Source: Candidatus Uhrbacteria bacterium CG_4_9_14_3_um_filter_41_35
GTDB taxonomy: Bacteria > Patescibacteriota > Patescibacteriia > UBA9934
DNA length: 64,000 nucleotides
Assembly: GCA_002791275.1 (NCBI GenBank)
Contig: PFWT01000009.1
Location: forward strand, 146,548-210,547
Reading direction: 5' to 3'
The notes below the pieces were generated by a model. The model saw only the letters and a list, made by a program, of their open reading frames with translations, made no database searches and was not told the origin of the DNA. The translations under genes and the position numbers were made by a program. Positions 7,890-26,885 of the stretch are shown here, one piece after another; the first letter of the stretch is position 1; every line of letters starts with the position of its first letter.

Positions 7890-7938
7890 TCTATTTTAAC
7901 ACAAAACAGGACTTCGTAGTCCTGTTTTGTTGAAAAGT

Positions 7939-8370
7939 TTAAGCTTCTTGCAATTCGTCTTCTGAAATTTTGTGGCCAACTGATGCGACAACTTCCCCGC
8001 CAACGATATATTCGGTTACTCTTAAAACAGTACCTTCGTTATTTTCAAATTCACGGTAAGAAATTTTATCTAGTTCCTCGCCATCATCTTTAATTTTTCC
8101 TGCAGTTTCATAAGAGAACTCATAATCGTCACCCCCGTAAACTGCTACATCAGATTCACCATCGATCTCCTCTTCAATATCGGTGAATAAAATTATTTCT
8201 TCTGCATCTTGGTCAAGTGACAGCCACATATCTCCACCATCCTTAATCCAAAAAACCTTTTCTCCGGTTTCCAAACTGACCTCGTCGATTTGACGTGTCT
8301 CAAAAGTAGTACCAGCAACAATAATCGGTTCTTCGTTTAATATTTTTTCTAATGCTTCTTCGATATTCAT
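7939..8370 (-). CDS. acidic hypothetical protein
   Basis: 143-aa ORF, highly D/E-rich, with no recognisable motif. Confidence 0.45.
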   Translation of the reverse strand: MNIEEALEKILNEEPIIVAGTTFETRQIDEVSLETGEKVFWIKDGGDMWLSLDQDAEEIILFTDIEEEIDGESDVAVYGGDDYEFSYETAGKIKDDGEELDKISYREFENNEGTVLRVTEYIVGGEVVASVGHKISEDELQEA

Positions 8371-8448: not shown

Positions 8449-9030
8449 TTAAAAATCAATTCCTTCACGCGCCGGTACTCCGGAGTAGAAATAGTGGCGC
8501 TCAGAGCCAACATTTGAAATCAGATTAGCTTCTATTAAAAACTCCGGTGCCGGGTTTCGGCCAGTTAAAACAACTTCCACCCCTTTATTTCTGCTCTTTA
8601 ATACACTAAGCACCACGCTGACGTCAAGCATACCCAAATCAGTTGTTGAATTTATCTCATCGAGCACCACTAAATCATAGTCACCAGTGGTTAAATCCTG
8701 CCGTGCTATTTGCAGTCCACGCTCAGCTTCATCCCTATCTACTTGCTGAATTGAAAAATCAAAGCGTCCAGTAATAGAATGAATCCGGTCCCGACCAGTT
8801 ACTGTGTAATCAATATTTTGAATCTGATCCAAAATCGCTCGTTCACTGTAATGCCCAGCGCCACCCTTATCAAAATATATAATCTTCACCCGTCGACCAG
8901 AACCGGCACACCGAATCGCTGTTCCAAGCGCCGAGGTCGTCTTCCCCTTACCTTCGCCATGCAAAATATGAATAAGACCATAACCCTTAAAACCACGAAT
9001 CCGCTCATCCATTTTGGGTTGTTCTACCAT
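8449..9030 (-). CDS. cobA: cob(I)yrinic acid a,c-diamide / cob(I)alamin adenosyltransferase (CobA/BtuR family)
   Basis: GEGKGKTTSALGTAIRCAGSGRRVKIIYFDKG, VLDE, LTGR and a C-terminal GIDF, which is co-linear with E. coli BtuR. Confidence 0.75.
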   Translation of the reverse strand: MVEQPKMDERIRGFKGYGLIHILHGEGKGKTTSALGTAIRCAGSGRRVKIIYFDKGGAGHYSERAILDQIQNIDYTVTGRDRIHSITGRFDFSIQQVDRDEAERGLQIARQDLTTGDYDLVVLDEINSTTDLGMLDVSVVLSVLKSRNKGVEVVLTGRNPAPEFLIEANLISNVGSERHYFYSGVPAREGIDF

Positions 9031-9031
9031 A

Positions 9032-9655
9032 TTACATTTTTTTAATTACAGTCAGTAACTCTTTCACCTTATGAACGACACAAACGGGCGCTCCTAGTTT
9101 TAAAGTCGGTTCTGCTTGATAACCCCAATTAACAGCAATCGCTTGCACGCCTGTCGATTTAGCTTCTTCAATATCACCCAAAGTATCCGTTATAAACAGC
9201 ACCTCGTTTGGCGTGATATTGTACTTTTCTAAATAAGCCATTATTTTTCGTCTTTTGTTTTTATCAATATCACCGCCATACACACTTTCGAAATAATCTA
9301 AGTCATATTTTTTTAGATATCTAGTAATGGGCTCAGAAATTGTTGATGAAATTATACTCATCTGATGCATTTTTACTAATTCAGCAAGCACTTCCTTAAT
9401 ACCTTTCACCGGTTCAATCTCTAAAAGTAGTGGCACATATTTCTTAAAAAACGGATCATTTTCGTCCAAAATATTATCTTCCTGATTTTGATGCATTAAT
9501 ACATCAATCTCTTTCGTGTCGTAGATATTGCCGTTAAAACGAGCCCGATACTCGTTTTCAGACATTTTGTTTGTTAAAAATAAGTTAGTAGTTTCAAACG
9601 CAATTTGAAAAGAATCAACTATAACGCCATCAAAATCGAATAACAGATGTTTCAT
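9032..9655 (-). CDS. HAD-superfamily hydrolase
   Basis: MKHLLFDFDGVIVDS (DxDG motif I). The start is probably this internal Met; the ORF track extends it to 9703. Confidence 0.7.
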   Translation of the reverse strand: MKHLLFDFDGVIVDSFQIAFETTNLFLTNKMSENEYRARFNGNIYDTKEIDVLMHQNQEDNILDENDPFFKKYVPLLLEIEPVKGIKEVLAELVKMHQMSIISSTISEPITRYLKKYDLDYFESVYGGDIDKNKRRKIMAYLEKYNITPNEVLFITDTLGDIEEAKSTGVQAIAVNWGYQAEPTLKLGAPVCVVHKVKELLTVIKKM

Positions 9656-9699
9656 AGGGCTTAATTTTAACAGACTGCGATAAATTAAAAAAATTATTA

Positions 9700-9741
9700 T
9701 CAACCAAGAAAATCAAAGACGAGGCTAAAGCCCCGTCTTTG
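9700..9741 (-). terminator. intrinsic terminator after nrdJ
   Basis: caaagacg..cgtctttg hairpin followed by U-rich tract on minus strand. Confidence 0.5.
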
Positions 9742-9761
9742 ATTTGTCGTAAAAGCTCAGT

Positions 9762-12700
9762 TTACGAACATCCGCTAGTTGAACCGCAGTTCAAACACTT
9801 ATAGCACGAGGCATTTCGCACCATAATTGAACCGCAAGTGTCGCAAGCGGGCGCGTCTGAAGAGTTATCGAAGGTCATTGTGTGTGCAGACCCTTCTTTT
9901 TCTTCAACCACCTTCACAGCCGACTCCACTGTTTTGTTAACCGCGCTCTTAAAAAGATCTGTTTGCTTAGCAACCTCTGGCACGATTTCCTCGTCTTCCA
10001 GTTCCTGTTCTTCAGCTTTTGAAGGCGAAGTGCCAACACTCATCTGATTCTCTGCGAGCTCGAAATTCACGCCAACCTTCACCTGCTCGTCTCGGCTTAA
10101 GAATTTAAGCGCCATCCAGCGGAAAATGTAATCCACGATCGACTTTGCCATACGGATATTTGGATTGTTTGTAAACCCAGATGGCTCAAAGCGCATATGC
10201 GCAAATTTATTCACCAATACCGGAAGTGGCACGCCGTATTGTAGTGCCATTGAAACACTGGTTGCAAAAGCGTCCATAAGTCCGCTAATTACCGAACCCT
10301 CTTTTGCCATTGTTACAAAGAGCTCACCCGGTGTGCCATCGTCGTAAAGACCGACAGTAATGTAACCCTTGTGTGGCCCGATTGAGAATCGGTGCGTCAG
10401 TGATCGACGTTCGTCTGGCATTCTTCGGCGACGTGCTGAATAATCCGCTGTGGTTACCTTTACAGTTTGTACAGCTGGAGTTGCTTCAGGAGTTTTTTCA
10501 GTCTTTCCCTCCTCTACCTTATTCTTTGAATCGTCATCCTTATTTGAGGTAGTGAGTGCTTGTTGTCGCTTAGATCCGTCGCGGTAAATAGCGATTGCTT
10601 TTAGACCCATCTTCCAGCCTTCCATATACACCTCTTCCACATCCAAAACAGTGGCGTCACTTGGCATATTAACTGTTTTACTGATTGCACCTGAAACAAA
10701 TGGTTGCACGGCTGCCATCATTCGAAGATGACCTAAATAGTGAATTGTTCGCTCCCCGTTTTTCGCCTTGAAAGCACAGTCGAAAACTGGTAAATCCGCT
10801 TCCTTAATGTGCGGTGCGCCTTCGATAGTGTCATTAGCGTCGATGTAAATCATTATTTCGTTGATCTCGAGCGCTGAGTAACCAAGTCTGTCCAAAGCCT
10901 CGGTTACGGTGTTATTCACGATTTTGATCATTCCGCCACCAACTAGCCACTTGTACTTTACTAGCGCAATGTCTGGTTCAACCCCGGTGGTGTCGCAGTC
11001 CATAAGAAAAGCAATAGTACCTGTCGGTGCTAACACAGAAATCTGCGCGTTTCGCAAACCGTGTTTAGAACCGTGGTCAACCACGTTGTCCCAACACTTT
11101 CGAGCTTCGAAAAGTAGATCAGACGGTACACCCTCTGGCTTCATATCGTAAGAAGCCTTGCGGTGCATATGCATTACTTCGAGTGTTGGCACCTCATTTT
11201 TCTTGTAACCAGCGAATGCCCCAATTTTTTCGGCAATCTTTGCGGACTGGTAGTAAGCTTCACCGGAAAGAAGCGACATGATTGCACCTGCCATATTTCG
11301 ACCTGCCTCTGAATCGTATGGCAAACCTCGGCTCATAAGGAGCGCCCCCAGGTTTGCAAAACCAATTCCCAAGGGTCGGTAGTCATAACTGTTTTCTTCG
11401 ATCGCTGGTGTTGGGTAGCTAGAATTTGACACTGCAATTTCCTGAGCAGTAATAATTACCGCAGTGGCCTTTTTGAAAGCCTCTGGATCAAATTCCATTT
11501 TTCCATCCACGCGTTTTCGGAACTTCATTAGGTTAAGTGAAGCCAAGTTACATGCTGAGTCATTAATGAACATGTACTCAGAACAAGGGTTTGATGCGTG
11601 AATACGGTCAGTATTTTTTGCAGTGTGCCACTTGTTGATTATAGTGTCGTACTGAATTCCAGGGTCGCCACAAAGCCAAGCAGCTTCTGCCATTTTTCGG
11701 AAAACATCTTTAGCTCGATATTTGAGTGAGTCGTTTCCTGTTGTTACTTCTTTTGTAACCCACTCAGAATCTTCTAAAACGGCCTGCATAAACTCGTCAT
11801 TAACACGAACCGAGTTGTTTGCGTTTTGGAAAAAGATTGAACTGTACGCATCACCGTTCATCGAGGCATCGTAGCCAGCATCAATTAGCGCCCAAGCTTT
11901 CTTTTCTTCCTTTACTTTACACTCAATAAATTCAACCACATCTGGGTGTTCTACGTTTAGAATCACCATTTTTGCTGCCCGTCTTGTTTTTCCACCACTC
12001 TTCACCACACCAGCAAAGGCATCAAAACCTTTCATGAACGAAACTGGCCCTGAGGATTTTCCGTTTGAACCGCCCAAAAATTCCTGCGTTGATCGAAGTT
12101 TAGAAAGATTACATCCAGCCCCAGAACCTCCCTTAAAGAGCATACTTTCGGTAGTTGCAAGATGCAGAATTGAGCGCATATCGTCCTCAACTGAGTTGAT
12201 AAAACACGCAGAGCACTGAGGATTTGAGTTAACACCAACATTGAACCAAACCGGGCTATTGAAAGCCGCCATCTGATTGATTAGAATGTGGGTTAGCTCG
12301 TCTTCAAAAATCTGTGCGTCCTTTGCTGACTGAAAATAACCGTCCATTCGTCCCCAATTAGCCATTGTTGTTGCAACTCGGCTAATGAGTTGTTTCATAC
12401 TGTTTTCTCGCTCAGGTGTACCAACTTTACCTCGGAAATACTTTTGAGCCACGATATTTGTGGCAGTTTGAGACCAATCTTTTGGTGTTTCAATACCTGT
12501 TTGCTCAAAAACTACTCCGCCTTTTGAATCCTTAATGCTAGCCGTTCGTGACTCCCACTCGATTTCATCGTATGGGTGAACGTTTTCTTTAGTAAAATAT
12601 CGATTAAACACTATTCCCTTACCATAAACTGGCACGCCGGTTTTGTTGGTAGAAGTATTTTGTTTAAAAACCATGTACTTTTTAGCCACATGGATGAGGT

Positions 12701-13007
12701 TGTTGTCTATAAGGGTCATCGACACCACTTCCCGAATATCCCCAGTGCTTGGTGTTTTGTGACCGTTATAGATCTTCTGCAAACGCGCAACGACCTGGCT
12801 AGAGATCTTGTCTGTGCGTGACTCTTCTGCAATTCCAGCAGATTTCATTGCTTCAAAAATTGAATTGCGGAGTTTGTTTGGACTAAATTCCACCTGACCA
12901 CCAGATTTCTTTGTTACATTTTTAATTGAGGTCATATAATCCCAAACTGTTTCAGAAATTTTCGAAGCACCACCCTCTTGCTTCGTCTGAATTTTTTGTT
13001 CGCTCAT
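9762..13007 (-). CDS. nrdJ: class II (adenosylcobalamin-dependent) ribonucleotide reductase with N-terminal ATP-cone
   Basis: ATP-cone (VTKKSGGQVEFSPNKL), SNPCSEY thiyl-radical loop (class II NPCGE-type) and a C-terminal Cys-rich tail CDTCGS..CYKCLNCGS. Confidence 0.85.
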   Translation of the reverse strand: MSEQKIQTKQEGGASKISETVWDYMTSIKNVTKKSGGQVEFSPNKLRNSIFEAMKSAGIAEESRTDKISSQVVARLQKIYNGHKTPSTGDIREVVSMTLIDNNLIHVAKKYMVFKQNTSTNKTGVPVYGKGIVFNRYFTKENVHPYDEIEWESRTASIKDSKGGVVFEQTGIETPKDWSQTATNIVAQKYFRGKVGTPERENSMKQLISRVATTMANWGRMDGYFQSAKDAQIFEDELTHILINQMAAFNSPVWFNVGVNSNPQCSACFINSVEDDMRSILHLATTESMLFKGGSGAGCNLSKLRSTQEFLGGSNGKSSGPVSFMKGFDAFAGVVKSGGKTRRAAKMVILNVEHPDVVEFIECKVKEEKKAWALIDAGYDASMNGDAYSSIFFQNANNSVRVNDEFMQAVLEDSEWVTKEVTTGNDSLKYRAKDVFRKMAEAAWLCGDPGIQYDTIINKWHTAKNTDRIHASNPCSEYMFINDSACNLASLNLMKFRKRVDGKMEFDPEAFKKATAVIITAQEIAVSNSSYPTPAIEENSYDYRPLGIGFANLGALLMSRGLPYDSEAGRNMAGAIMSLLSGEAYYQSAKIAEKIGAFAGYKKNEVPTLEVMHMHRKASYDMKPEGVPSDLLFEARKCWDNVVDHGSKHGLRNAQISVLAPTGTIAFLMDCDTTGVEPDIALVKYKWLVGGGMIKIVNNTVTEALDRLGYSALEINEIMIYIDANDTIEGAPHIKEADLPVFDCAFKAKNGERTIHYLGHLRMMAAVQPFVSGAISKTVNMPSDATVLDVEEVYMEGWKMGLKAIAIYRDGSKRQQALTTSNKDDDSKNKVEEGKTEKTPEATPAVQTVKVTTADYSARRRRMPDERRSLTHRFSIGPHKGYITVGLYDDGTPGELFVTMAKEGSVISGLMDAFATSVSMALQYGVPLPVLVNKFAHMRFEPSGFTNNPNIRMAKSIVDYIFRWMALKFLSRDEQVKVGVNFELAENQMSVGTSPSKAEEQELEDEEIVPEVAKQTDLFKSAVNKTVESAVKVVEEKEGSAHTMTFDNSSDAPACDTCGSIMVRNASCYKCLNCGSTSGCS

Positions 13008-13109
13008 AGCATTTGCGGATAAAATTAATTAGATGATTACGGTTATGAATTCGAGGCGAAAAAAATTGACCCCCTGACGGGATCCCACTCTTTGCCCCCG
13101 AACCTTATA

Positions 13110-13157
13110 ACACCATATGTTGTGTCTCCAAAAGGATTGTACCACAACATATAGTGT
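13110..13157 (-). promoter_or_regulatory. tandem NrdR boxes upstream of nrdJ
   Basis: acaccatatgttgtgt and cacaacatatagtgt, both close to the NrdR palindrome consensus acaCwAtATaTwGtgt. Starts are 32 bp apart (about 3 helical turns), 100-150 bp upstream of the start codon. Confidence 0.6.
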
Positions 13158-13219
13158 CTCTCGATACCTAATTGTGGATAAGGTGCGAGTAAGTTTGGTT
13201 GCTATTTTGAATTCAAGTT

Positions 13220-13810
13220 TTAGAATCCCATACTTAAATTAATGACTGGTTTTTCTTCTTTAACCTCAGCGAAATCTATGTTCACCTGCCGTCTCTGACC
13301 CGTTCGGTCGTCAAATAAAACATAGCCGTTCCTCTTTCCAAACTCATAAACTTCCTTGGTCACTTTCACGTCTTGCTGACAGTAATTAATTACCTCTTGA
13401 ACCTTACCCTCTCGCCACCACTGCACCGCAAGTAGTCCGTGGGCACTTTTTTTGATGCCAATTGAAGCTACGGCTACGTCGTCGAGCTTTATTCTGTAGC
13501 CTAAAGACTGGTGAATATGCGCAAGCATATCGCACTGGGGAATATTCATTAGATCACCAACATAATATTTGTTCAGCACCGGAATATCGAAACCTATTGT
13601 GTTGTAGCCAATAATTCGACCATTTCGCTCCAGTCTTTCAAATAACTTTGGTAAATCCTCGACTAAATAGGATTCATATTCGTCTGTAGCGTAGTAATAA
13701 GCAACAACCACAGAAACATCTAGCTTTTCTGGAAAATAACCCCCAACATCCTGAAAAGTATTAGAGGTTTCAATATCTAAAACAACTTCATTACTTACTT
13801 CATTATTCAT
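13220..13810 (-). CDS. predicted 3'-5' exonuclease, RNase H-like fold (PolB-exonuclease-like / YprB-like)
   Basis: LDIETSN (exo I), IGYNTIGFDIPVL (exo II), YCQQDVKVT (exo III). Confidence 0.6.
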   Translation of the reverse strand: MNNEVSNEVVLDIETSNTFQDVGGYFPEKLDVSVVVAYYYATDEYESYLVEDLPKLFERLERNGRIIGYNTIGFDIPVLNKYYVGDLMNIPQCDMLAHIHQSLGYRIKLDDVAVASIGIKKSAHGLLAVQWWREGKVQEVINYCQQDVKVTKEVYEFGKRNGYVLFDDRTGQRRQVNIDFAEVKEEKPVINLSMGF

Positions 13811-14773: not shown

Positions 14774-16177
14774 TTACTCAAGTGAACTTGCCGCTCCAGC
14801 TATCGCTTCTGAGTATGAGGGATAAGCATGAATCATATTTGCTAGCACATCAACTCTACAGTCAACCTCCATCGCAAACGCAATTTCGTGAATTAACTCC
14901 CCGGCCCGTTCGCCGATAATATGGCCTCCTAAAATTTTTCGTGTTTTTTTGTCGACAATAATTTTTACAAGCCCTCTCCGGTCACGTTCTGTTACAGCTC
15001 GACCAAGCGCACCAATTGGGAATCGACCAATCAAAACCTCTTTTTTAAGCATTCCAGCTGTATCTGAAGTTATACCAACCGAAGCCACTTCCGGGTTTGT
15101 AAACGTAACCCTTGGTACAACTCTCATATCTCGCTTCAAGCGTGATTTTTGTTTTTCTAAAAAGTTAACAACATTATTCCCAGCAATCGCGCCTTCGGTG
15201 CGAGCTGTGTGCGTAAAAAGAAATCCTCCCGAAACATCACCAGCTGTAAAAATATGTTTAGCACTGGTTTGTAAGTCTTCCGTAACCTTAAGCCGACCAC
15301 GATCATCGACCTTTACTTTAGCGTTTTCGAGTTTGAGTTCTGAAACATTAGCTCGCTTTCCAGCTGCAACCATTACCTCATCAACAATAATATGTTCTCT
15401 TTGATGTTTACCCTCATCAAAAGTAACCCGTTTTCTGCGACCATATTTTTCAACACTTAGAGTTTTTGTATCTACATACACCTCCACCCCATTTTTCATT
15501 AACTCATGAGTAGCCAAATTCGCAATTTCAACATCTTCTCTAATTAGAATCGTTGGGTCGAGTTGAAGAATATGAACTTTGACACCAAAAGTACTGAAAA
15601 AAGTTGCAAATTCACAAGAAACCGCCCCACCACCAATTATTGCAATTGATTTTGGCAGTTTCTTCATTTTCATTATGTCTTTATAACTAATAAAACCAAG
15701 TTCCGTTAGACCTGCAATCGGTGGAATAAAATCAATCGCGCCAGTTGCAATCACAAAAGCTTTGGCAGTGTATTTTTTTTTCTCTACAACTATTGTATTT
15801 TGATCTAGGAAAACCGCTTTACCTTTTACCGTTTGAATACCAAATTCCTTAGCCAATCGGGGAATTTTTTGACCGTGGCTAGTTATTAAATCTACGATTT
15901 TATTTTTTTCTGCCATTATATTTGCAAAACTGAAACCGACACTGCCAGCACTAATTCCAAAATCTTCTAAATTTTTTGTAACTTCCCGGTATCTTTTGGC
16001 GGATTTAAGCAGGGCCTTAGTAGGAATACAGGCGCTGTTTGGACACTCGCCGCCCCAGTCTCCTGACTCTATTACCAAAACTTTAGCGCCACGAGCCTGG
16101 GCGGTTTCAGCTGCAGAAAAACCAGCTGAACCAGAACCAATCACAATCACATCAAATTTATTTTTCCCCCTTTTCAT
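14774..16177 (-). CDS. pyridine nucleotide-disulfide oxidoreductase, dihydrolipoyl dehydrogenase family
   Basis: DVIVIGSGSAG FAD fold, redox-active GGECPNSACIPTK (Cx4C) and a C-terminal IHAYPSYSE (HxHPTxSE-like) dimerisation motif. Confidence 0.75.
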   Translation of the reverse strand: MKRGKNKFDVIVIGSGSAGFSAAETAQARGAKVLVIESGDWGGECPNSACIPTKALLKSAKRYREVTKNLEDFGISAGSVGFSFANIMAEKNKIVDLITSHGQKIPRLAKEFGIQTVKGKAVFLDQNTIVVEKKKYTAKAFVIATGAIDFIPPIAGLTELGFISYKDIMKMKKLPKSIAIIGGGAVSCEFATFFSTFGVKVHILQLDPTILIREDVEIANLATHELMKNGVEVYVDTKTLSVEKYGRRKRVTFDEGKHQREHIIVDEVMVAAGKRANVSELKLENAKVKVDDRGRLKVTEDLQTSAKHIFTAGDVSGGFLFTHTARTEGAIAGNNVVNFLEKQKSRLKRDMRVVPRVTFTNPEVASVGITSDTAGMLKKEVLIGRFPIGALGRAVTERDRRGLVKIIVDKKTRKILGGHIIGERAGELIHEIAFAMEVDCRVDVLANMIHAYPSYSEAIAGAASSLE

Positions 16178-22241: not shown

Positions 22242-25200
22242 TTATTTATAAGTTACGGTGATGTCATTAAATAGCGGTGGAGTAAGCGCACCTGTTGATG
22301 TAATAATCACCCGGTACTGGAAGTAGCGACCAGTTTGACCAGCCAAACTCACACCATCTGCGGTTGTGTAATCCGGTGAAAAAACTGACCAAGTACCATC
22401 AATAACCGGCGAATTTCCACTCCGCACCGCTACGGTAATTTCTGAATTAGCCGGCAAAGTTTCACTCCACGAGAGTGTGTCCCAAACATTTGAAGCAACG
22501 TCGCTGTCAAAAATTATTGATGTGTAAGTCCCGAGTCCTCCCACGGAACCAGCACCACCACCGATAATTTGCTCAAGATGCATAAAGAGTCCAGCATCAC
22601 CTACAATCCAACCATTACCCGAACTTGTCATTGAGATGTCGTTCAAATTAGTGGTAACCGGTGAAGTAAAGAGCGCCCAAGAGATGCCCTTGTACTGAAT
22701 TAAGGCTCCGGCATCCCCAACTGCCCAGCCGTCATCGAAAGCTGTTAAATTGATCGCATTAAGATTTGCAACTGTTGGTGAAGTATCCGTTGTCCAAGTT
22801 GTCCCGTTATAGATGAGGATCGTACCAGTTGCACCAACCGCCCAACCATCGGTGGCCGAAACCATATAGATATCGTTCAGTTGATTGCCAGTTGGCGATG
22901 TTACAGTGCTCCAGTTTGAACCATTGTAGTGAATAATGGTACCGCCTGCCCCCACTGCCCAAATATCGCCAGGACCAACCGCATAAACAGCCTGTAGGTT
23001 TTGTATTGTTGGTGAAGTAGTCAATACCCAATTTACACCGTTAAAATGTAAAATTATACCGCCGTTACCCACTGCCCAAGCATCCGCCGTATCTATTACA
23101 TCAACTGCGGTTAGATTGTTTACAGTTGGTGAAGACATTGTGGTCCAAACCCCCGTATCATTTTTTACAATCGTACCATTATCACCTACGGCAAAACCTG
23201 TTGTTTCATTAAAGAAATCAACCGCGTTCACGTTAACTGTTACTGGCGACGCGTCCACATCCCAAGCGGTACCAGCGTAACTATTGAGCGACCCTAGGTT
23301 GGCCACTGAGAAACCGACCGTATCTGAAACTAAATGAATACCATTGATATTTTCAGTTGTTGGGTTGTTGTAGCTAATTTTTATTGAGTCTAGGCTTGGC
23401 GTAATGCTTTGATTCAAGGTACTTAAAGTAACTTCATACTGCAGATACTGACCATTTAGCGAAGCAATTACTTCACCGTTTGGATTGGTATACGCACCAG
23501 CAAACGCTGACCAGCTACCGTCTGGTACTGGTGTTGCGCCAGTCCGAGTGTTAATCACAACATCCACTGCCCCCTGACCAATATCTTCAACCCAAGAAAT
23601 ATAATCCCAGTGAGTGTTTGGATCTAGACTGTTGATTATCGGAGAAGTGTAGGTACCGGTTAAGAAGTAAAGTCCTGTGTAGTGCACAAAGGTTGAACTC
23701 AGACCTCCGGCCCAGATATCGCTGCTATCCGCGATCGAAACTGAGTTAAGATCTGTCCCCGTTGGTGAACTCGCTTGTGTCCAAGTTAACCCGTCCCACT
23801 TTAAAATAACTCCATTGTCTCCCACAATCCAGCCATCAGTCGCCGAAACCATTTCGACATCCTGAAGCTCACTATTCGTTGGCGACGCCACATTTGACCA
23901 ACTTGTTCCGTCGTAGTGCATAATCGTGCCACTGCGACCAACTACCCAACCGTCTGTTGCAGAAATGAAATTGATAGCATTTAAGTTTTGACTCGTTGGT
24001 GTGCTCATTGAAGACCAGTTTGAACCGTTCCAATGCAGAATTCGACCACTTCGACCTGCAATATAACCATCTGTAGCCGAGATCATACTAACATCATTTA
24101 AACTACTACTGGTGCCTGAGTTAACTAAGGACCAAGAAATACCGTCATACGAAAGGATTTTTCCATTTTTTCCAACAGCCACTCCAAACGAGGAGCTGAC
24201 CATATCAACATCATAAAGTGTTTGTGAGGTTGGTGAAGTTGCAATTGTCCAGACCGAACCATTGTTTACTAAAATCTGACCCTCTTCACCCACCGCCCAA
24301 CCTTCGGTTGCTGATGCAAAATCAACTCCGTACATTTGTTTTTGTGTTGGAGAATTGATTTGCGACCAGCCATTATTTTCGTATTTAAACATTGCACCGT
24401 TTCGTCCCACAGCCCAACCAGTTGAACTATTAATCATACAAATATCTTCCACCGTATCGTTTCCAAGTTCAGCTGTGTAGTCACTCCAGTATGTTGGAAT
24501 AAAGTAGGTTGTTGCTGTCCAAACTGTACCATCATAATTTGCCACCATTCCATTTGCGCCAACCGCAAAGCCGGAAGAAGTGTTTTGCATTTTTACTCCA
24601 ATAAAATCCTCAGTCGTAAGCGTGGTAACTGTGTACCAATTACTTCCGTTATAGTGAAGTATCGTCCCTGAGTCACCAACAGCCCAAACATCATTTGTAG
24701 CAATAGCATATACGCCACGTAAATCATCATGAGTTGGTGTGTTTACACTCGACCACGAAGACCCGTTCCAGTGCCGAGCCGTGCCATTATCCCCAACAGC
24801 CCAACCGTCATTCGCCGAAATAAAGTACACATCTCTAAGTTTCTGTGAGGTGCCGCTTGAAACGTTTGACCAACTATTACCGTTCCAATGAATTATTTGA
24901 CCACTCTCACCAACAGCCCAACCATCTGTTGTTGAAAGCATATAAACTGCTGCGAAGTTTCTAGATGTTGGTGAGGAGATTTTTGACCAAGAATTGCCAT
25001 TGTACCGTAAAATTGTTCCATCCTCGCCAACTGCCATACCAAAACTTGAACTTACCATTGAAACACTTGCCAGATCTTCTGAGGTTGGCGAAGAAACCGT
25101 GCTCCAGGTTCCATTATAATTCAAAATCGTACCCGAATCACCAACCGCAAAGCCGTTATTTGAATCTATGAAATCAAGAGAATTTAAGTCACGAGTCGTT

Positions 25201-26885
25201 GGAGAAGATAAATCGATCCAATTTGTGCCGTTAAAATTTGCTATTGTACCAGAATCTCCAACACCCCAACCGCTTGTGTTACCAAGTATTTCAACACTGT
25301 TAAGATCATTTGAACCAGAGACGCCACTTGCACCTGTGCCGTCAAACAAACCAATCACCGGTATACTCGATCCCCCAACGAACCAGCCATTATTTTCGTC
25401 TAGCAGATAAACACTCTTTAGATCCTCACCAGTAACTGATGCCTGTGCTGTCCAGCTACTACCATTCCAGTGGAAAATATCCCCGTTATCACCAACCGCA
25501 ACACCAAAGTTAGCGCTCACCATTGATAAACCTCTTATATCAGGTGAACCTGAAATTTGCTGGCTAACCCACGAATTACCATTGTAAAAAATCATGGTTC
25601 CCGATCGACCTCCTGCCCAGACATGCGAGGCATCAACCGCATAAACCGTGTAAAGTCGTTGATTAATTGGATTTGATACCGAAATCCATAGAGAGCCATT
25701 CCAATTATACGTGTGCCCATTTCGATCAACGGCCCAAGCATTAGTTTCTGAAATTACTGAAACATCGTATAAATCAGAATTGGTACCAGAAGTAACCGCT
25801 GTCCAAACAGCTCCATTCCAGTGTTGAATTTCACCACCAGTTGCGACAATCCAGCCATCAGTCGGGCTTGAAAAATCTATCGCATTCAAATTTTTATTAC
25901 TTGCCGAGGGTATAGTACTCCAGCTAAGACCATTCCAGTGAAGTATTAGGCCGGAATCTCCAACCAACCAAACATCATTCACCGATTTAACATAAACTCC
26001 ATTTAAATCTGCAGTTACTCCACTTGCCACCTGAAACCAATTTGCACCATCCCACTTCAAAATTGAACCAGTATTTCCAACTGCATAGCCAAGATCTGCG
26101 GAACTCATGTGAATGTCATTTAACAAATCCGAGTTAGCAGCTGGCGGAGAAAATACTCCCCATTGTGGGGTATTGTTGAGTTCAATCGATGCTGTAGCTC
26201 CGGTTCTTGCTCGAACTGTGTCCGTGAAGGTTCCTGGATCAAAATCAAGATCGGTCGTATGAATTACCGACAGTCCTCCTCCAGGAATCCACCTGTCAAC
26301 GGCAAAGGATGTGTCTCCTGAAATTGTGAGTGATGCTGAATCGCCAGTGCCATTTATTACAATGTCCGTTGCCGTACCAGCGCTAAAATCAGTACTCGAA
26401 GTTTCGTGCCAATCAAAAACGTTCCAGTCGGTTAAATAAGTAACCGCCTGCACACTTCGCAGAGCGTTTCTGGCAGTCCAACTCACAACTGAAGTTACTT
26501 TTTTTGTACGCGGATCAATCTGCCCGCCGGTTGCCACGATATTATTATTCACATCCCGCTCAACACTTGAAATTGTAACCACACGAGTGTAAATATCAAC
26601 AATGTCATTTACACCACTAAACGCCCAGCTACCACCCGTGTTTGCCACGCCATGCGCACCGTCAATTAAGTTCAGCCAAGATTCATCGCGGATACTCCGA
26701 GCCGCTTCAAGTCCCTCCTGCGCTATAACCGTTGCCCGCACCTCTTCGTTACTGACGCCAAGCGAAACTAAACTATCAAGGAAAATTGTGCTCACAACCA
26801 AGGTTATGATACTAAAAATCGACATGGCAATAACTACTTCTGCCAAACTTTGACCTTTTTTATTTTTGAAAATTGAAGTAAACAT
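22242..26885 (-). CDS. giant prepilin-fused multi-beta-propeller protein (candidate pilus-associated adhesin)
   Basis: N-terminal KG|QSLAEVVIAMSIF prepilin signal. At least 26 tandem blades, each about 42 aa, with the motif t-SPT-x-DL-x-V-x(5)-GWAVGdsGtILhYNGsnWS, plus two copies of a roughly 90-aa non-repeat module. Translationally coupled to its flanking pilin genes. Confidence 0.85.
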   Translation of the reverse strand: MFTSIFKNKKGQSLAEVVIAMSIFSIITLVVSTIFLDSLVSLGVSNEEVRATVIAQEGLEAARSIRDESWLNLIDGAHGVANTGGSWAFSGVNDIVDIYTRVVTISSVERDVNNNIVATGGQIDPRTKKVTSVVSWTARNALRSVQAVTYLTDWNVFDWHETSSTDFSAGTATDIVINGTGDSASLTISGDTSFAVDRWIPGGGLSVIHTTDLDFDPGTFTDTVRARTGATASIELNNTPQWGVFSPPAANSDLLNDIHMSSADLGYAVGNTGSILKWDGANWFQVASGVTADLNGVYVKSVNDVWLVGDSGLILHWNGLSWSTIPSASNKNLNAIDFSSPTDGWIVATGGEIQHWNGAVWTAVTSGTNSDLYDVSVISETNAWAVDRNGHTYNWNGSLWISVSNPINQRLYTVYAVDASHVWAGGRSGTMIFYNGNSWVSQQISGSPDIRGLSMVSANFGVAVGDNGDIFHWNGSSWTAQASVTGEDLKSVYLLDENNGWFVGGSSIPVIGLFDGTGASGVSGSNDLNSVEILGNTSGWGVGDSGTIANFNGTNWIDLSSPTTRDLNSLDFIDSNNGFAVGDSGTILNYNGTWSTVSSPTSEDLASVSMVSSSFGMAVGEDGTILRYNGNSWSKISSPTSRNFAAVYMLSTTDGWAVGESGQIIHWNGNSWSNVSSGTSQKLRDVYFISANDGWAVGDNGTARHWNGSSWSSVNTPTHDDLRGVYAIATNDVWAVGDSGTILHYNGSNWYTVTTLTTEDFIGVKMQNTSSGFAVGANGMVANYDGTVWTATTYFIPTYWSDYTAELGNDTVEDICMINSSTGWAVGRNGAMFKYENNGWSQINSPTQKQMYGVDFASATEGWAVGEEGQILVNNGSVWTIATSPTSQTLYDVDMVSSSFGVAVGKNGKILSYDGISWSLVNSGTSSSLNDVSMISATDGYIAGRSGRILHWNGSNWSSMSTPTSQNLNAINFISATDGWVVGRSGTIMHYDGTSWSNVASPTNSELQDVEMVSATDGWIVGDNGVILKWDGLTWTQASSPTGTDLNSVSIADSSDIWAGGLSSTFVHYTGLYFLTGTYTSPIINSLDPNTHWDYISWVEDIGQGAVDVVINTRTGATPVPDGSWSAFAGAYTNPNGEVIASLNGQYLQYEVTLSTLNQSITPSLDSIKISYNNPTTENINGIHLVSDTVGFSVANLGSLNSYAGTAWDVDASPVTVNVNAVDFFNETTGFAVGDNGTIVKNDTGVWTTMSSPTVNNLTAVDVIDTADAWAVGNGGIILHFNGVNWVLTTSPTIQNLQAVYAVGPGDIWAVGAGGTIIHYNGSNWSTVTSPTGNQLNDIYMVSATDGWAVGATGTILIYNGTTWTTDTSPTVANLNAINLTAFDDGWAVGDAGALIQYKGISWALFTSPVTTNLNDISMTSSGNGWIVGDAGLFMHLEQIIGGGAGSVGGLGTYTSIIFDSDVASNVWDTLSWSETLPANSEITVAVRSGNSPVIDGTWSVFSPDYTTADGVSLAGQTGRYFQYRVIITSTGALTPPLFNDITVTYK

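What the first reader, a model, noticed from the sequence alone, without database searches (positions are those of the whole stretch)
8449..13160. AdoCbl-dependent ribonucleotide reductase juxtaposed with a cob(I)alamin adenosyltransferase and tandem NrdR boxes
nrdJ (class II; NPCSE radical loop, ATP-cone, Cys-rich C-tail) is the only RNR in the window and needs adenosylcobalamin. Two genes downstream on the same strand is a CobA/BtuR-type ATP:cob(I)alamin adenosyltransferase, the enzyme that makes that cofactor from salvaged corrinoid. This suggests a dedicated cofactor-activation module in an organism unlikely to synthesise B12 de novo. Upstream of nrdJ are two 16-bp NrdR-box-like palindromes with 32-bp spacing. 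No nrdR gene is in the window.
Basis: partly seen in the sequence, partly recalled or inferred. Interest (0 to 1): 0.5.

Follow-up and report, generated by a model that had tools for sequence, protein, structure and literature searches.

The report
NrdR-controlled B12 reductase with B12 activator
A tiny groundwater bacterium (Candidatus Uhrbacteria) keeps its vitamin-B12-dependent DNA-precursor enzyme next to the enzyme that turns salvaged B12 into the active cofactor, behind a textbook NrdR repressor site; every part belongs to a known family, so this is a tidy but ordinary arrangement.

Summary
On the minus strand lie nrdJ (9762..13007: ATP-cone, class II N-domain, barrel with NPCSE, Cys-rich tail), a HAD phosphatase (9032..9655) and a CobA/BtuR-type adenosyltransferase (8449..9030). 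Two NrdR-type boxes (13157..13142 and 13125..13110) have a 16-bp spacer. The source is a Candidatus Uhrbacteria MAG.

Relatives support both links. cobA follows nrdJ on the same strand in 25 of 27 distinct Uhrbacteria loci, often directly. The HAD gene is an insertion specific to this lineage. Tandem boxes 32-33 bp apart precede nrdJ in 27 of 31 loci. They are the only such pairs in about 420 kb. Box 1 fills the -35/-10 spacer and box 2 covers the predicted start site. CobA's catalytic residues are invariant across 120 relatives.

Three caveats apply. In this window a terminator-like hairpin separates nrdJ from HAD-cobA. No nrdR was found locally, and the whole genome could not be searched. 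B12 synthesis and uptake could not be tested.

One extra feature turned up: a conserved hairpin plus U-run in the nrdJ leader, a possible attenuator with no Rfam match.

Verdict: a new member of known kinds, of modest interest.

The parts
13159..13164 (-). Weak -35-like hexamer (TCGAGA) that abuts the 5' end of box 1
   Evidence: Promoter scan found TCGAGA-17-TACAAT with a TG extension. Many relatives have TTGCA, TTGACA or TTTACA at the same position.
13142..13157 (-). NrdR-type box 1 (ACACTATATGTTGTGG), which occupies the -35/-10 spacer
   Evidence: Two mismatches to the consensus. Conserved in position in relatives.
13136..13141 (-). -10 hexamer TACAAT; the TG of the extended -10 comes from the end of box 1
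   Evidence: A -10-like hexamer follows box 1, directly or after 1-2 nt, in nearly all aligned relatives.
13110..13125 (-). NrdR-type box 2 (ACACAACATATGGTGT), inferred to cover about +4 to +19
   Evidence: Two mismatches to the consensus. The 16-bp spacer from box 1 is the canonical spacing (PMC12051234). Position relative to the start site is inferred from the -10.
13047..13104 (-). Leader hairpin. The core is GAUCCC-GUCAG-GGGGUC (13084..13068), followed by AA and U7 (13065..13059). An outer stem extends it. It is terminator-like and a candidate attenuator.
   Evidence: z = -2.4. Nineteen of 27 orthologous leaders meet a strict hairpin-plus-U-run rule, against 0.7 expected. RNAalifold gives a 7-bp consensus stem. 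No Rfam match.
9762..13007 (-). nrdJ, a class II (AdoCbl-dependent) ribonucleotide reductase with an N-terminal ATP-cone, a TSCPD insert and a Cys-rich C-terminal tail
9710..9745 (-). Terminator-like hairpin with a 16-pair stem and a U-rich tail, just after the nrdJ stop codon
9664..9672 (-). Possible extended -10 (TGTTAAAAT) for HAD-cobA, 8 nt before the HAD ATG; low confidence
   Evidence: Read directly from the sequence. Inference only.
9032..9655 (-). HAD-IA family phosphatase of unknown substrate; its stop codon lies 1 bp from the cobA start
   Evidence: Pfam HAD_2 at 81.7 bits. Only generic HAD-IA subfamily models pass their NCBIfam cut-offs (TIGR01549; TIGR01509 falls just below its cut-off); no equivalog does. 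No homologue in 23 related loci. Start as called in public contigs.
8449..9030 (-). CobA/BtuR/CobO-type ATP:cob(I)alamin adenosyltransferase
   Evidence: PF02572 at 160 bits over the full length. S. enterica CobA structures 1G5R and 4HUT match at E = 7e-16. Key residues are invariant in 120 relatives. Below the NCBIfam equivalog cut-offs.
7939..8370 (-). Acidic protein of 143 aa and unknown function, conserved directly downstream of cobA; followed by a terminator-like hairpin at 7924..7907
   Evidence: No Pfam or NCBIfam hit. Homologue after cobA in 12 related loci. Hairpin.

Best explanation
This is the deoxyribonucleotide-supply locus of a Candidatus Uhrbacteria (Patescibacteria/CPR) genome.

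nrdJ encodes an adenosylcobalamin-dependent class II ribonucleotide reductase with an N-terminal ATP-cone. Its promoter is built around a canonical tandem NrdR operator. Box 1 fills the -35/-10 spacer and box 2 covers the first roughly 20 transcribed bases. An NrdR tetramer loaded with ATP and dATP would therefore exclude RNA polymerase when dNTPs are plentiful. This mechanism is inferred from the architecture and from NrdR studies in other bacteria.

Downstream, a CobA/BtuR-type adenosyltransferase converts salvaged, reduced corrinoid plus ATP into adenosylcobalamin, the cofactor NrdJ needs. In the ancestral Uhrbacteria arrangement cobA follows nrdJ directly and is probably co-transcribed with it.

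In this lineage a HAD phosphatase has been inserted between the two genes. It is translationally coupled to cobA. A terminator-like hairpin after nrdJ suggests that HAD-cobA(-143 aa) is now largely a separate transcription unit.

A conserved hairpin plus U-run in the nrdJ leader probably adds an attenuation or insulation step. The signal it would respond to is unknown.
For: Shown by tool results:
- Gene identities.
- Source organism: the identical CobA is named in NCBI for Candidatus Uhrbacteria bacterium CG_4_10_14_..., assembly GCA_002795965.1.
- cobA lies downstream of nrdJ on the same strand in 18 of 22 GTDB species loci. Two of the four exceptions have under 1.3 kb of downstream DNA. It is also present in all 7 new metagenome loci with enough DNA.
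- In 8 loci the gap between nrdJ and cobA is 330 bp or less, or the two overlap.
- There is no cobA near the non-Uhrbacteria nrdJ relatives.
- In CobA the P-loop, R51, K66, F91, W93 (as F), D127-E128, T159-G160-R161, H182 and D195 (S. enterica numbering) are invariant or nearly invariant (T159 is T in 114 and S in 6) in 120 relatives.
- Tandem boxes 32-33 bp apart occur in 27 of 31 loci. In 1.68 million tested positions of related DNA, the only pairs with 8 or fewer total mismatches are those upstream of nrdJ.
- A -10-like TAnAAT follows box 1 (directly or after 1-2 nt) and a -35-like TTGnnn often precedes it.
- The terminator-like hairpin after nrdJ and the 1-bp junction between HAD and cobA.
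- Leader hairpin enrichment, 19 of 27 against 0.7 expected.

From the literature:
- Pairs of NrdR boxes with 15-16 bp spacers are the norm, and 14-17 bp is tolerated in vitro (PMC12051234).
- The boxes overlap the transcription start (PMC9110341).
Against: - No nrdR gene was found in the window or within 10 kb of nrdJ in about 30 related loci. Its presence elsewhere in the genome is untested.
- CobA scores below the NCBIfam equivalog cut-offs (121.5 against 167.75). W93 is replaced by F.
- The whole neighbourhood, including PBP2 and MurF, is syntenic. Conserved adjacency is therefore not by itself proof of functional coupling.
- Two loci (L018, L021) have no cobA within 10 kb.
- No reductant for Co(II) to Co(I) and no corrinoid transporter was identified in the window.
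- All transcription-unit boundaries are predictions.
Confidence: 0.8

Rival explanations
1. The nrdJ-cobA adjacency is inherited synteny with no dedicated functional coupling. On this view cobA serves general corrinoid salvage, or other B12 enzymes, and merely sits in a stable gene block.
For: The whole block exonuclease-nrdJ-cobA-143 aa-PBP2-MurF is conserved across the same loci. In this window a terminator-like hairpin separates nrdJ from HAD-cobA. L018 and L021 have no cobA within 10 kb.
Against: Insertions occur between nrdJ and cobA (HAD, NUDIX, small ORFs), yet order and strand are kept in 25 of 27 loci. In 8 loci the genes abut or overlap, which is operon-like. NrdJ is the only B12-dependent enzyme seen in any of these loci.
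Confidence: 0.13
2. The CobA-like protein is a diverged P-loop NTPase that acts on something other than a corrinoid. It might work with the fused or adjacent NUDIX and HAD hydrolases in (deoxy)nucleotide processing downstream of the reductase.
For: It falls below the NCBIfam equivalog cut-offs. There is a recurrent association with nucleotide hydrolases. Relatives carry N-terminal MutT-like NUDIX fusions (P0112, P0044), and here a HAD phosphatase is coupled to it. PF02572 also contains non-ATR members such as NF005648, annotated 'P-loop NTPase family protein'.
Against: The match to S. enterica CobA covers the full length. The corrin-facing aromatic pair F91 and W93 (as F) is invariant, as are the nucleotide-site residues. 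The best NCBIfam matches are the true cobA models. The neighbour is an enzyme that needs the product.
Confidence: 0.05
3. The two palindromes are bound by a regulator other than NrdR, or are promoter-associated repeats that resemble NrdR boxes by chance.
For: No nrdR was found in about 0.55 Mb of Uhrbacteria DNA examined. Two database searches did not return any Patescibacteria NrdR, although those searches were not able to target the phylum.
Against: The sequence matches the NrdR consensus (2 mismatches per box). The canonical 16-17 bp spacer is present. The pairs occur only at nrdJ promoters in 27 of 31 species, and they overlap the -35/-10 region and the start site (PMC12051234; PMC9110341).
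Confidence: 0.03
4. For the leader hairpin only: it is simply the intrinsic terminator of the upstream exonuclease gene and has no regulatory role for nrdJ.
For: In the window there is no other terminator between the exonuclease stop (13220) and box 1. The hairpin looks like the ordinary A-tract/U-tract terminators used throughout this genome.
Against: It lies downstream of the nrdJ promoter, so it must also meet nrdJ transcripts. L011 has a separate terminator-like hairpin before box 1. In L025 the upstream gene ends 700 nt away, yet the leader hairpin is kept. The stem sequence GG(A/G)UCCC...GGGAUC is conserved and is found mainly in nrdJ leaders: 12 of 20 regex hits in 561 kb.
Confidence: 0.35

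Closest known systems
NrdR-repressed RNR promoters, for example the Streptomyces coelicolor nrdRJ and nrdABS, E. coli nrdAB/nrdHIEF/nrdDG and Listeria nrd promoters
   Same: Two 16-bp palindromic boxes of the aCACwAtATaTwGTGt type are separated by a 15-16 bp spacer. The centres are about three helical turns apart. The boxes overlap the core promoter and the transcription start (PMC12051234, PMC9110341).
   Different: nrdR is not adjacent to nrdJ here, unlike the Streptomyces nrdR-nrdJ operon, and it was not located at all. Box 1 exactly fills the -35/-10 spacer in the whole clade. A conserved terminator-like leader hairpin follows the operator.
Salmonella enterica CobA and E. coli BtuR (ATP:co(I)rrinoid adenosyltransferase; PDB 1G5R, 1G5T, 1G64, 4HUT)
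   Same: The fold family is the same (PF02572), as are the length, the P-loop GxGKGKTT, the Walker B DE, R161 and H182. There is an aromatic residue at F91 and another at W93, the residues that displace the lower ligand.
   Different: The phmmer match is only 61.7 bits, and the protein scores below the NCBIfam equivalog cut-offs. W93 is F. An insertion of about 10 residues precedes the FDF motif. The gene is linked to nrdJ rather than to cob/btu genes. Some clade members carry an N-terminal NUDIX domain.
Class II RNRs with an ATP-cone and a C-terminal Cys-rich zinc-finger tail (NrdJ; best solved relative 7B9P/7B9Q, also Thermotoga maritima 1XJE)
   Same: It has the barrel with the NPCSE thiyl-radical loop, the class II N-terminal domain and the C-terminal CxxC...CxxC tail.
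   Different: The nearest non-CPR relatives (mostly Acidobacteriota, Vicinamibacterales, with some Chloroflexota, at 57-60% identity) lack the ATP-cone. In those the match starts near residue 130.
Cobalamin-riboswitch control of RNR choice (for example Streptomyces nrdABS)
   Same: B12 status and RNR expression are linked at one locus.
   Different: No cobalamin riboswitch, and no other Rfam family, is present in the window or in 9 related loci. The leader element is a short hairpin plus U-run, far too small to be an AdoCbl aptamer.

Membership tests
Class II (AdoCbl-dependent) ribonucleotide reductase, NrdJ | RNR alpha barrel with the thiyl-radical cysteine loop | tested here: met
   PF02867 at 464 bits. 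'SNPCSE' is in the translation.
Class II (AdoCbl-dependent) ribonucleotide reductase, NrdJ | Class II-specific N-terminal domain and an equivalog-level model score | tested here: met
   PF08471 at 83.7 bits. NF005122 scores 1438 against a cut-off of 859, and TIGR02504 scores 581.6 against 399.95.
Class II (AdoCbl-dependent) ribonucleotide reductase, NrdJ | AdoCbl-dependent activity with no beta subunit or activase needed | not testable with these tools
   No nrdB, nrdF or nrdG is in the window. Activity needs biochemistry.
ATP-cone allosteric domain | Pfam ATP-cone above the gathering score at the N-terminus | tested here: met
   PF03477 at 49.7 bits against 25.8, residues 30-116. Nucleotide binding was not tested.
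CobA/BtuR/CobO ATP:co(I)rrinoid adenosyltransferase | Full-length PF02572 domain with the P-loop GxxGxGKT(T) | tested here: met
   160 bits, profile positions 3-172 of 172. GEGKGKTT is present, and G-K-G-K-T-T is invariant or nearly so in 120 relatives (the first T is S in 5).
CobA/BtuR/CobO ATP:co(I)rrinoid adenosyltransferase | Aromatic residues equivalent to S. enterica F91 and W93, which generate four-coordinate cob(II)alamin | tested here: met
   The aligned motif is F-D-F (F90 and F92), invariant in 120 relatives. W is conservatively replaced by F. The role of these residues is taken from established knowledge of the 4HUT study.
CobA/BtuR/CobO ATP:co(I)rrinoid adenosyltransferase | Score above the NCBIfam equivalog cut-off (TIGR00708 or NF004637) | tested here: not met
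   121.5 against 167.75, and 135.7 against 185. Membership therefore holds at family level, not at curated equivalog level.
CobA/BtuR/CobO ATP:co(I)rrinoid adenosyltransferase | Adenosylation of cob(I)alamin with ATP | not testable with these tools
   Needs an enzyme assay or genetic complementation.
NrdR operator | 16-bp palindromic boxes that match the NrdR consensus | tested here: met
   Two mismatches each to ACACWATATATWGTGT. These are the only hits at 2 or fewer mismatches in 64 kb.
NrdR operator | Two boxes with a 15-16 bp spacer (14-17 tolerated) | tested here: met
   The spacer is 16 bp here and 16-17 bp in relatives. The criterion comes from PMC12051234.
NrdR operator | Located upstream of an RNR gene and overlapping the promoter or start site | tested here: met
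   Box 1 lies between the -35-like and -10 hexamers. Box 2 begins 10 nt after the -10. The promoter is predicted, not mapped.
NrdR operator | Conserved at orthologous promoters and specific to them | tested here: met
   Present in 27 of 31 distinct loci. No other tandem pair with 8 or fewer mismatches occurs in about 420 kb, both strands.
NrdR operator | Cognate NrdR (Zn-ribbon plus ATP-cone) encoded in the genome | tested here: inconclusive
   Absent from the window and from 10 kb either side of nrdJ in about 30 related loci. The same searches found NrdR in L163 and L168, which serve as positive controls. Searches could not target the phylum.
Cobalamin riboswitch | Match to Rfam RF00174 or related families in the nrdJ or cobA leaders | tested here: not met
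   No hit at gathering score in the window or in 9 related loci. No hit at E of 10 or less in 12900..13300.
Leader attenuator (intrinsic terminator in a 5' UTR) | GC-rich hairpin followed by a U-run between the promoter and the start codon, conserved in orthologues | tested here: met
   Core at 13084..13068 plus U7. Nineteen of 27 leaders meet the strict rule, against 0.7 expected from shuffles and 4.2% of random genomic segments. A consensus stem is predicted.
Leader attenuator (intrinsic terminator in a 5' UTR) | Mutually exclusive antiterminator, or a sensed ligand or factor | tested here: inconclusive
   Alternative pairings can be drawn in some species, for example L017. None is consistently conserved. 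The purine tract upstream mostly pairs with the U-tract.

The most novel reading that the evidence does not exclude
The conserved hairpin plus U-run between the NrdR operator and the nrdJ start codon may be a previously undescribed cis-regulatory attenuator. It would add a second, post-initiation checkpoint on the only RNR of these reduced genomes. The signal might be nucleotide or cofactor status, or a protein factor.

In parallel, the recurrent NUDIX-CobA fusions and the HAD-CobA coupling may mark an undescribed accessory step in corrinoid salvage. One possibility is disposal of the triphosphate by-product. Another is trimming of a nucleotide-linked corrinoid precursor.
Probability: 0.2. Interest if true: 0.55.

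Novelty: new member of a known kind. Interest (0 to 1): 0.3.

Why it matters
Patescibacteria (CPR) have roughly 1-Mb genomes and are thought to depend on other organisms for cofactors. This locus makes DNA-precursor synthesis in Uhrbacteria depend on scavenged corrinoid. The cell must adenosylate that corrinoid itself, and the cobA gene that does so is kept beside nrdJ. That points to vitamin B12, or a B12 precursor, as a concrete currency of host or community dependence in this clade.

The locus also extends the canonical NrdR operator, with its canonical spacing, to a CPR lineage. [quoted passage not shown] Neither point changes how these families are understood. The leader hairpin and the NUDIX/HAD associations are the only parts that could lead to something new.

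Tried and rejected
1. Finding nrdR.
- An E. coli NrdR query recalled from memory and an HMM of 120 NrdRs found nothing in the window or in the Uhrbacteria loci. Both found NrdR next to nrdJ in two non-CPR loci (L163, L168), so the method works.
- Two searches of the large protein database were meant to reach a Patescibacteria NrdR. One used a 46-aa Zn-ribbon consensus and one a full-length consensus. They returned only short fragments and Firmicutes proteins. The tool ranks by similarity and cannot be aimed at a phylum.
- Walking along the 160-kb contig in 10-kb steps was judged too unlikely to succeed and was not done.

2. Literature. No open-access paper combines NrdR, cobalamin or adenosyltransferase with Patescibacteria, CPR or Uhrbacteria. 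PMC12960796 mentions cobalamin only as a viral auxiliary-gene module.

3. Cobalamin riboswitch or any other known RNA in the leader: rejected.

4. A MAFFT alignment of 19 whole leaders (A1) gave no consensus structure, because indels put the 3' arm out of register. A shorter alignment of 13 sequences (A2) gave a 7-bp stem with little covariation. No covariance model was built.

5. A leader peptide starting at the conserved GUG of GUGGGAUCCC was considered. The reading frames and lengths are not conserved between species, and the purine tract upstream pairs with the U-tract instead of acting as a ribosome-binding site. It was dropped.

6. One look-up failed because the ORF start differed from the called gene.


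Full report
**What is there**

All relevant genes lie on the minus strand.

- nrdJ (9762..13007) encodes a 1081-aa protein. Pfam finds an ATP-cone (residues 30-116), the class II N-terminal domain, the RNR barrel and a TSCPD insert.
- It passes the NCBIfam equivalog models for B12-dependent RNR. NF005122 scores 1438 against a cut-off of 859. TIGR02504 scores 581.6 against 399.95.
- The translation shows the SNPCSE radical loop and a C-terminal CxxC...CxxCxxC tail. The best solved relatives are class II RNRs 7B9P/7B9Q and Thermotoga 1XJE.
- A HAD-IA phosphatase follows at 9032..9655, using the start called in public contigs. No specific NCBIfam model passes its cut-off for it.
- One base after the HAD stop comes a 193-aa CobA/BtuR/CobO protein at 8449..9030. 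PF02572 matches at 160 bits over the full length.
- The identical CobA sequence occurs on contigs of up to 325 kb. NCBI names it for Candidatus Uhrbacteria bacterium CG_4_10_14_..., assembly GCA_002795965.1.
- Pfam annotation of the whole window shows no second RNR, no nrdR, no corrinoid transporter and no cob/cbi genes. The rest of the window holds cell-wall genes (PBP2, MurF, MraZ/MraW region), a type IV pilus cluster, UvrABC and GlmS.

**The boxes**

- Upstream of nrdJ are ACACTATATGTTGTGG (13157..13142) and ACACAACATATGGTGT (13125..13110), with a 16-bp spacer between them.
- Each has 2 mismatches to ACACWATATATWGTGT. No other site in the window reaches 2 or fewer.
- A promoter-like site, TCGAGA-17-TACAAT with a TG extension, spans 13164..13136. 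Box 1 is therefore the -35/-10 spacer.
- Box 2 starts 10 nt after the -10, at about +4. This is inferred, because the start site has not been mapped.

**Relatives: nrdJ and cobA**

- A scan of GTDB species genomes with NrdJ gave 22 Uhrbacteria-type loci (L007-L028, 61-73% identity, all with the ATP-cone). The remainder were mostly Acidobacteriota and Chloroflexota relatives that lack the ATP-cone.
- Several Uhrbacteria-type records are titled 'uncultured Gammaproteobacteria', which is evidently a labelling artefact.
- A metagenome scan added 8 distinct Uhrbacteria-type loci.
- A cobA homologue lies downstream of nrdJ on the same strand in 18 of the 22 GTDB loci. Two of the four negatives have under 1.3 kb of downstream DNA. 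It is also present in all 7 new loci with enough DNA, so the total is 25 of 27.
- None of the non-Uhrbacteria loci has cobA nearby.
- In 8 loci cobA abuts or overlaps nrdJ. In the others, variable small ORFs intervene.
- The window's HAD gene has no homologue in any related locus. It is an insertion specific to this lineage.
- In several relatives CobA carries an N-terminal MutT-like NUDIX domain.
- A caveat applies. The entire block exonuclease-nrdJ-cobA-143 aa-PBP2-MurF is syntenic, so adjacency alone is not proof of coupling. The abutting and overlapping arrangements, and the persistence of order through insertions, argue for an ancestral nrdJ-cobA operon.

**CobA function**

- The protein aligns over its full length to S. 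enterica CobA structures 1G5R and 4HUT at E = 7e-16.
- In an alignment of 120 Patescibacteria homologues with the Salmonella enzyme, many residues are invariant or nearly so. These are the P-loop G-x-G-K-G-K-T-T, R51, K66, F91, D127-E128, T159-G160-R161, H182, F184 and D195.
- W93 is always F.
- F91 and W93 are the residues reported to create four-coordinate cob(II)alamin. This rests on established knowledge of the 4HUT work, not on a test here.
- The protein scores below the NCBIfam equivalog cut-offs. Family membership is therefore firm, and exact function is inferred.

**Relatives: the operator**

- Tandem boxes 32-33 bp apart, with 9 or fewer total mismatches, precede nrdJ in the window, in 20 of the 22 GTDB loci and in 6 of the 8 new loci. 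That is 27 of 31.
- Both strands of the 22 GTDB loci were tested, about 420 kb and 1.68 million positions. The only pairs with 8 or fewer mismatches are those at nrdJ, one per locus.
- The invariant core is CAC-N8-GTG inside nCAC(A/T)A....T(A/T)GTGn.
- A TAnAAT-type hexamer follows box 1 (directly or after 1-2 nt) in nearly every species. A TTGnnn-type hexamer often abuts its 5' side. The promoter-operator design is therefore conserved.
- The spacing equals the canonical 15-16 bp spacer, with 14-17 bp tolerated in vitro (PMC12051234). NrdR boxes are described as overlapping the transcription start (PMC9110341).

**nrdR**

- No nrdR is present in the window or within 10 kb of nrdJ in about 30 Uhrbacteria loci. 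The same searches found nrdR beside nrdJ in two non-CPR loci, which serve as positive controls.
- Two attempts to retrieve a Patescibacteria NrdR from the large protein database failed, because the tool cannot be aimed at a phylum.
- Presence of NrdR in the genome is therefore inferred from the selected operator. It has not been shown.

**Transcription units in this window (predicted)**

- A perfect hairpin with a 16-pair stem and a U-rich tail follows the nrdJ stop codon at 9745..9710.
- A possible extended -10, TGTTAAAAT, lies 8 nt before the HAD ATG.
- The next clear terminator is after the 143-aa gene, at 7924..7907.
- In this lineage nrdJ therefore looks monocistronic, and HAD-cobA-143 aa looks like a separate unit. 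NrdR control need not extend to cobA here.

**Leader element (outside the original finding)**

- Between box 2 and the start codon lies a GC-rich hairpin plus U7. The core is at 13084..13068 and the extended stem spans 13104..13047.
- A comparable hairpin plus U-run sits 20-60 nt after box 2 in 19 of 27 orthologous leaders by a strict rule. Shuffled leaders give 0.7, and 4.2% of random 110-nt genomic segments qualify. With looser rules about 23 leaders qualify.
- One subclade shares the sequence GUGGG(A/G)UCCC-loop-GGGAUC-U(n). A regex for this motif hits mostly nrdJ leaders: 12 of 20 hits in 561 kb.
- RNAalifold supports a 7-bp consensus stem with modest covariation.
- The upstream purine tract mainly pairs with the U-tract, as in this genome's ordinary terminators.
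- The element is not just the upstream gene's terminator. L011 has its own terminator-like hairpin before box 1. In L025 the upstream gene ends 700 nt away.
- No Rfam family matches, and there is no cobalamin riboswitch anywhere in these loci.
- I regard it as a candidate attenuator or insulator with an unknown signal. This is the least ordinary feature of the locus.

**Comparison and verdict**

- Functionally this is a standard NrdR-repressed class II RNR gene with a BtuR-like salvage adenosyltransferase kept beside it.
- Each part is a member of a known family. CobA qualifies at Pfam level but not at equivalog level.
- I found no open-access paper that describes the nrdJ-cobA linkage or NrdR operators in Patescibacteria. 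Neither would surprise a specialist.
- The claim 'organism unlikely to synthesise B12' is plausible for a CPR genome on general knowledge, but it remains untested here.
- Novelty: a new member of a known kind. Interest: about 0.3.

Noticed in passing
window 13047..13104 (minus strand); same position in L007-L025, L089, L090, L093, L099: A conserved GC-rich hairpin plus U-run (terminator-like) sits in the nrdJ 5' leader, 20-60 nt after NrdR box 2. Nineteen of 27 leaders qualify, against 0.7 expected. It has no Rfam match. It may be an attenuator.
   Followed up: partly
relatives P0027, P0029, P0044, P0079, P0085, P0095, P0112 (e.g. L008 14521..15510, L011 14033..15046, L025 15082..16080): In several Uhrbacteria the CobA domain carries an N-terminal MutT-like NUDIX domain. 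In the window a HAD phosphatase is translationally coupled to cobA instead. This is a recurrent pairing of a nucleotide hydrolase with the adenosyltransferase, and its meaning is unknown.
   Followed up: partly
window 7939..8370 (minus strand): A very acidic 143-aa protein with no Pfam or NCBIfam hit lies directly downstream of cobA. A homologue holds the same position in 12 related loci.
   Followed up: partly
window 14774..16177 (minus strand): A flavoprotein disulfide reductase just passes the dihydrolipoyl dehydrogenase equivalog (TIGR01350, 413 bits against 408.8). It is syntenic upstream of nrdJ in 11 related loci. This is odd for a CPR genome that is expected to lack 2-oxoacid dehydrogenase complexes. 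It could supply reducing power to NrdJ or to cobalamin reduction.
   Followed up: partly
window 13220..13810 (minus strand): A small RNase_H_2/PolB-exo-like 3'-5' exonuclease lies immediately upstream of nrdJ. It is conserved there in 20 of 23 related loci and has no terminator of its own before the nrdJ promoter.
   Followed up: partly
window 9664..9672 and 9653..9655 (minus strand): The HAD start codon has no Shine-Dalgarno sequence. It lies 8 nt after a possible extended -10 (TGTTAAAAT), which suggests a leaderless or near-leaderless HAD-cobA transcript.
   Followed up: no
L026 and L027 (also L095, L096): The most divergent Uhrbacteria-type loci lack recognisable tandem NrdR boxes. In L026 and L027 cobA overlaps the 3' end of nrdJ. 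L026 carries a 17-nt CCACA-N7-TGTGG palindrome instead.
   Followed up: no
L007, L010, L012, L016, L017, L019, L022, L024, L025, L027 (record titles): Public records titled 'uncultured Gammaproteobacteria bacterium' carry loci that are syntenic with Uhrbacteria and 62-73% identical to them. These appear to be taxonomic mislabels from automated MAG submission.
   Followed up: no
L030-L086, L100-L168: The nearest non-CPR NrdJ relatives (57-60% identity) are mostly from Acidobacteriota (Vicinamibacterales), with some Chloroflexota and a few records with other titles, and lack the ATP-cone. This hints at horizontal transfer of nrdJ, with gain or loss of the ATP-cone. Two of these loci (L163, L168) have nrdR directly upstream of nrdJ.
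   Followed up: no
window 22242..26885 (minus strand): A 1547-aa ORF with no Pfam hit is embedded in the type IV pilus gene cluster (PilB/PilT/PilC/PilM and pseudopilins).
   Followed up: no
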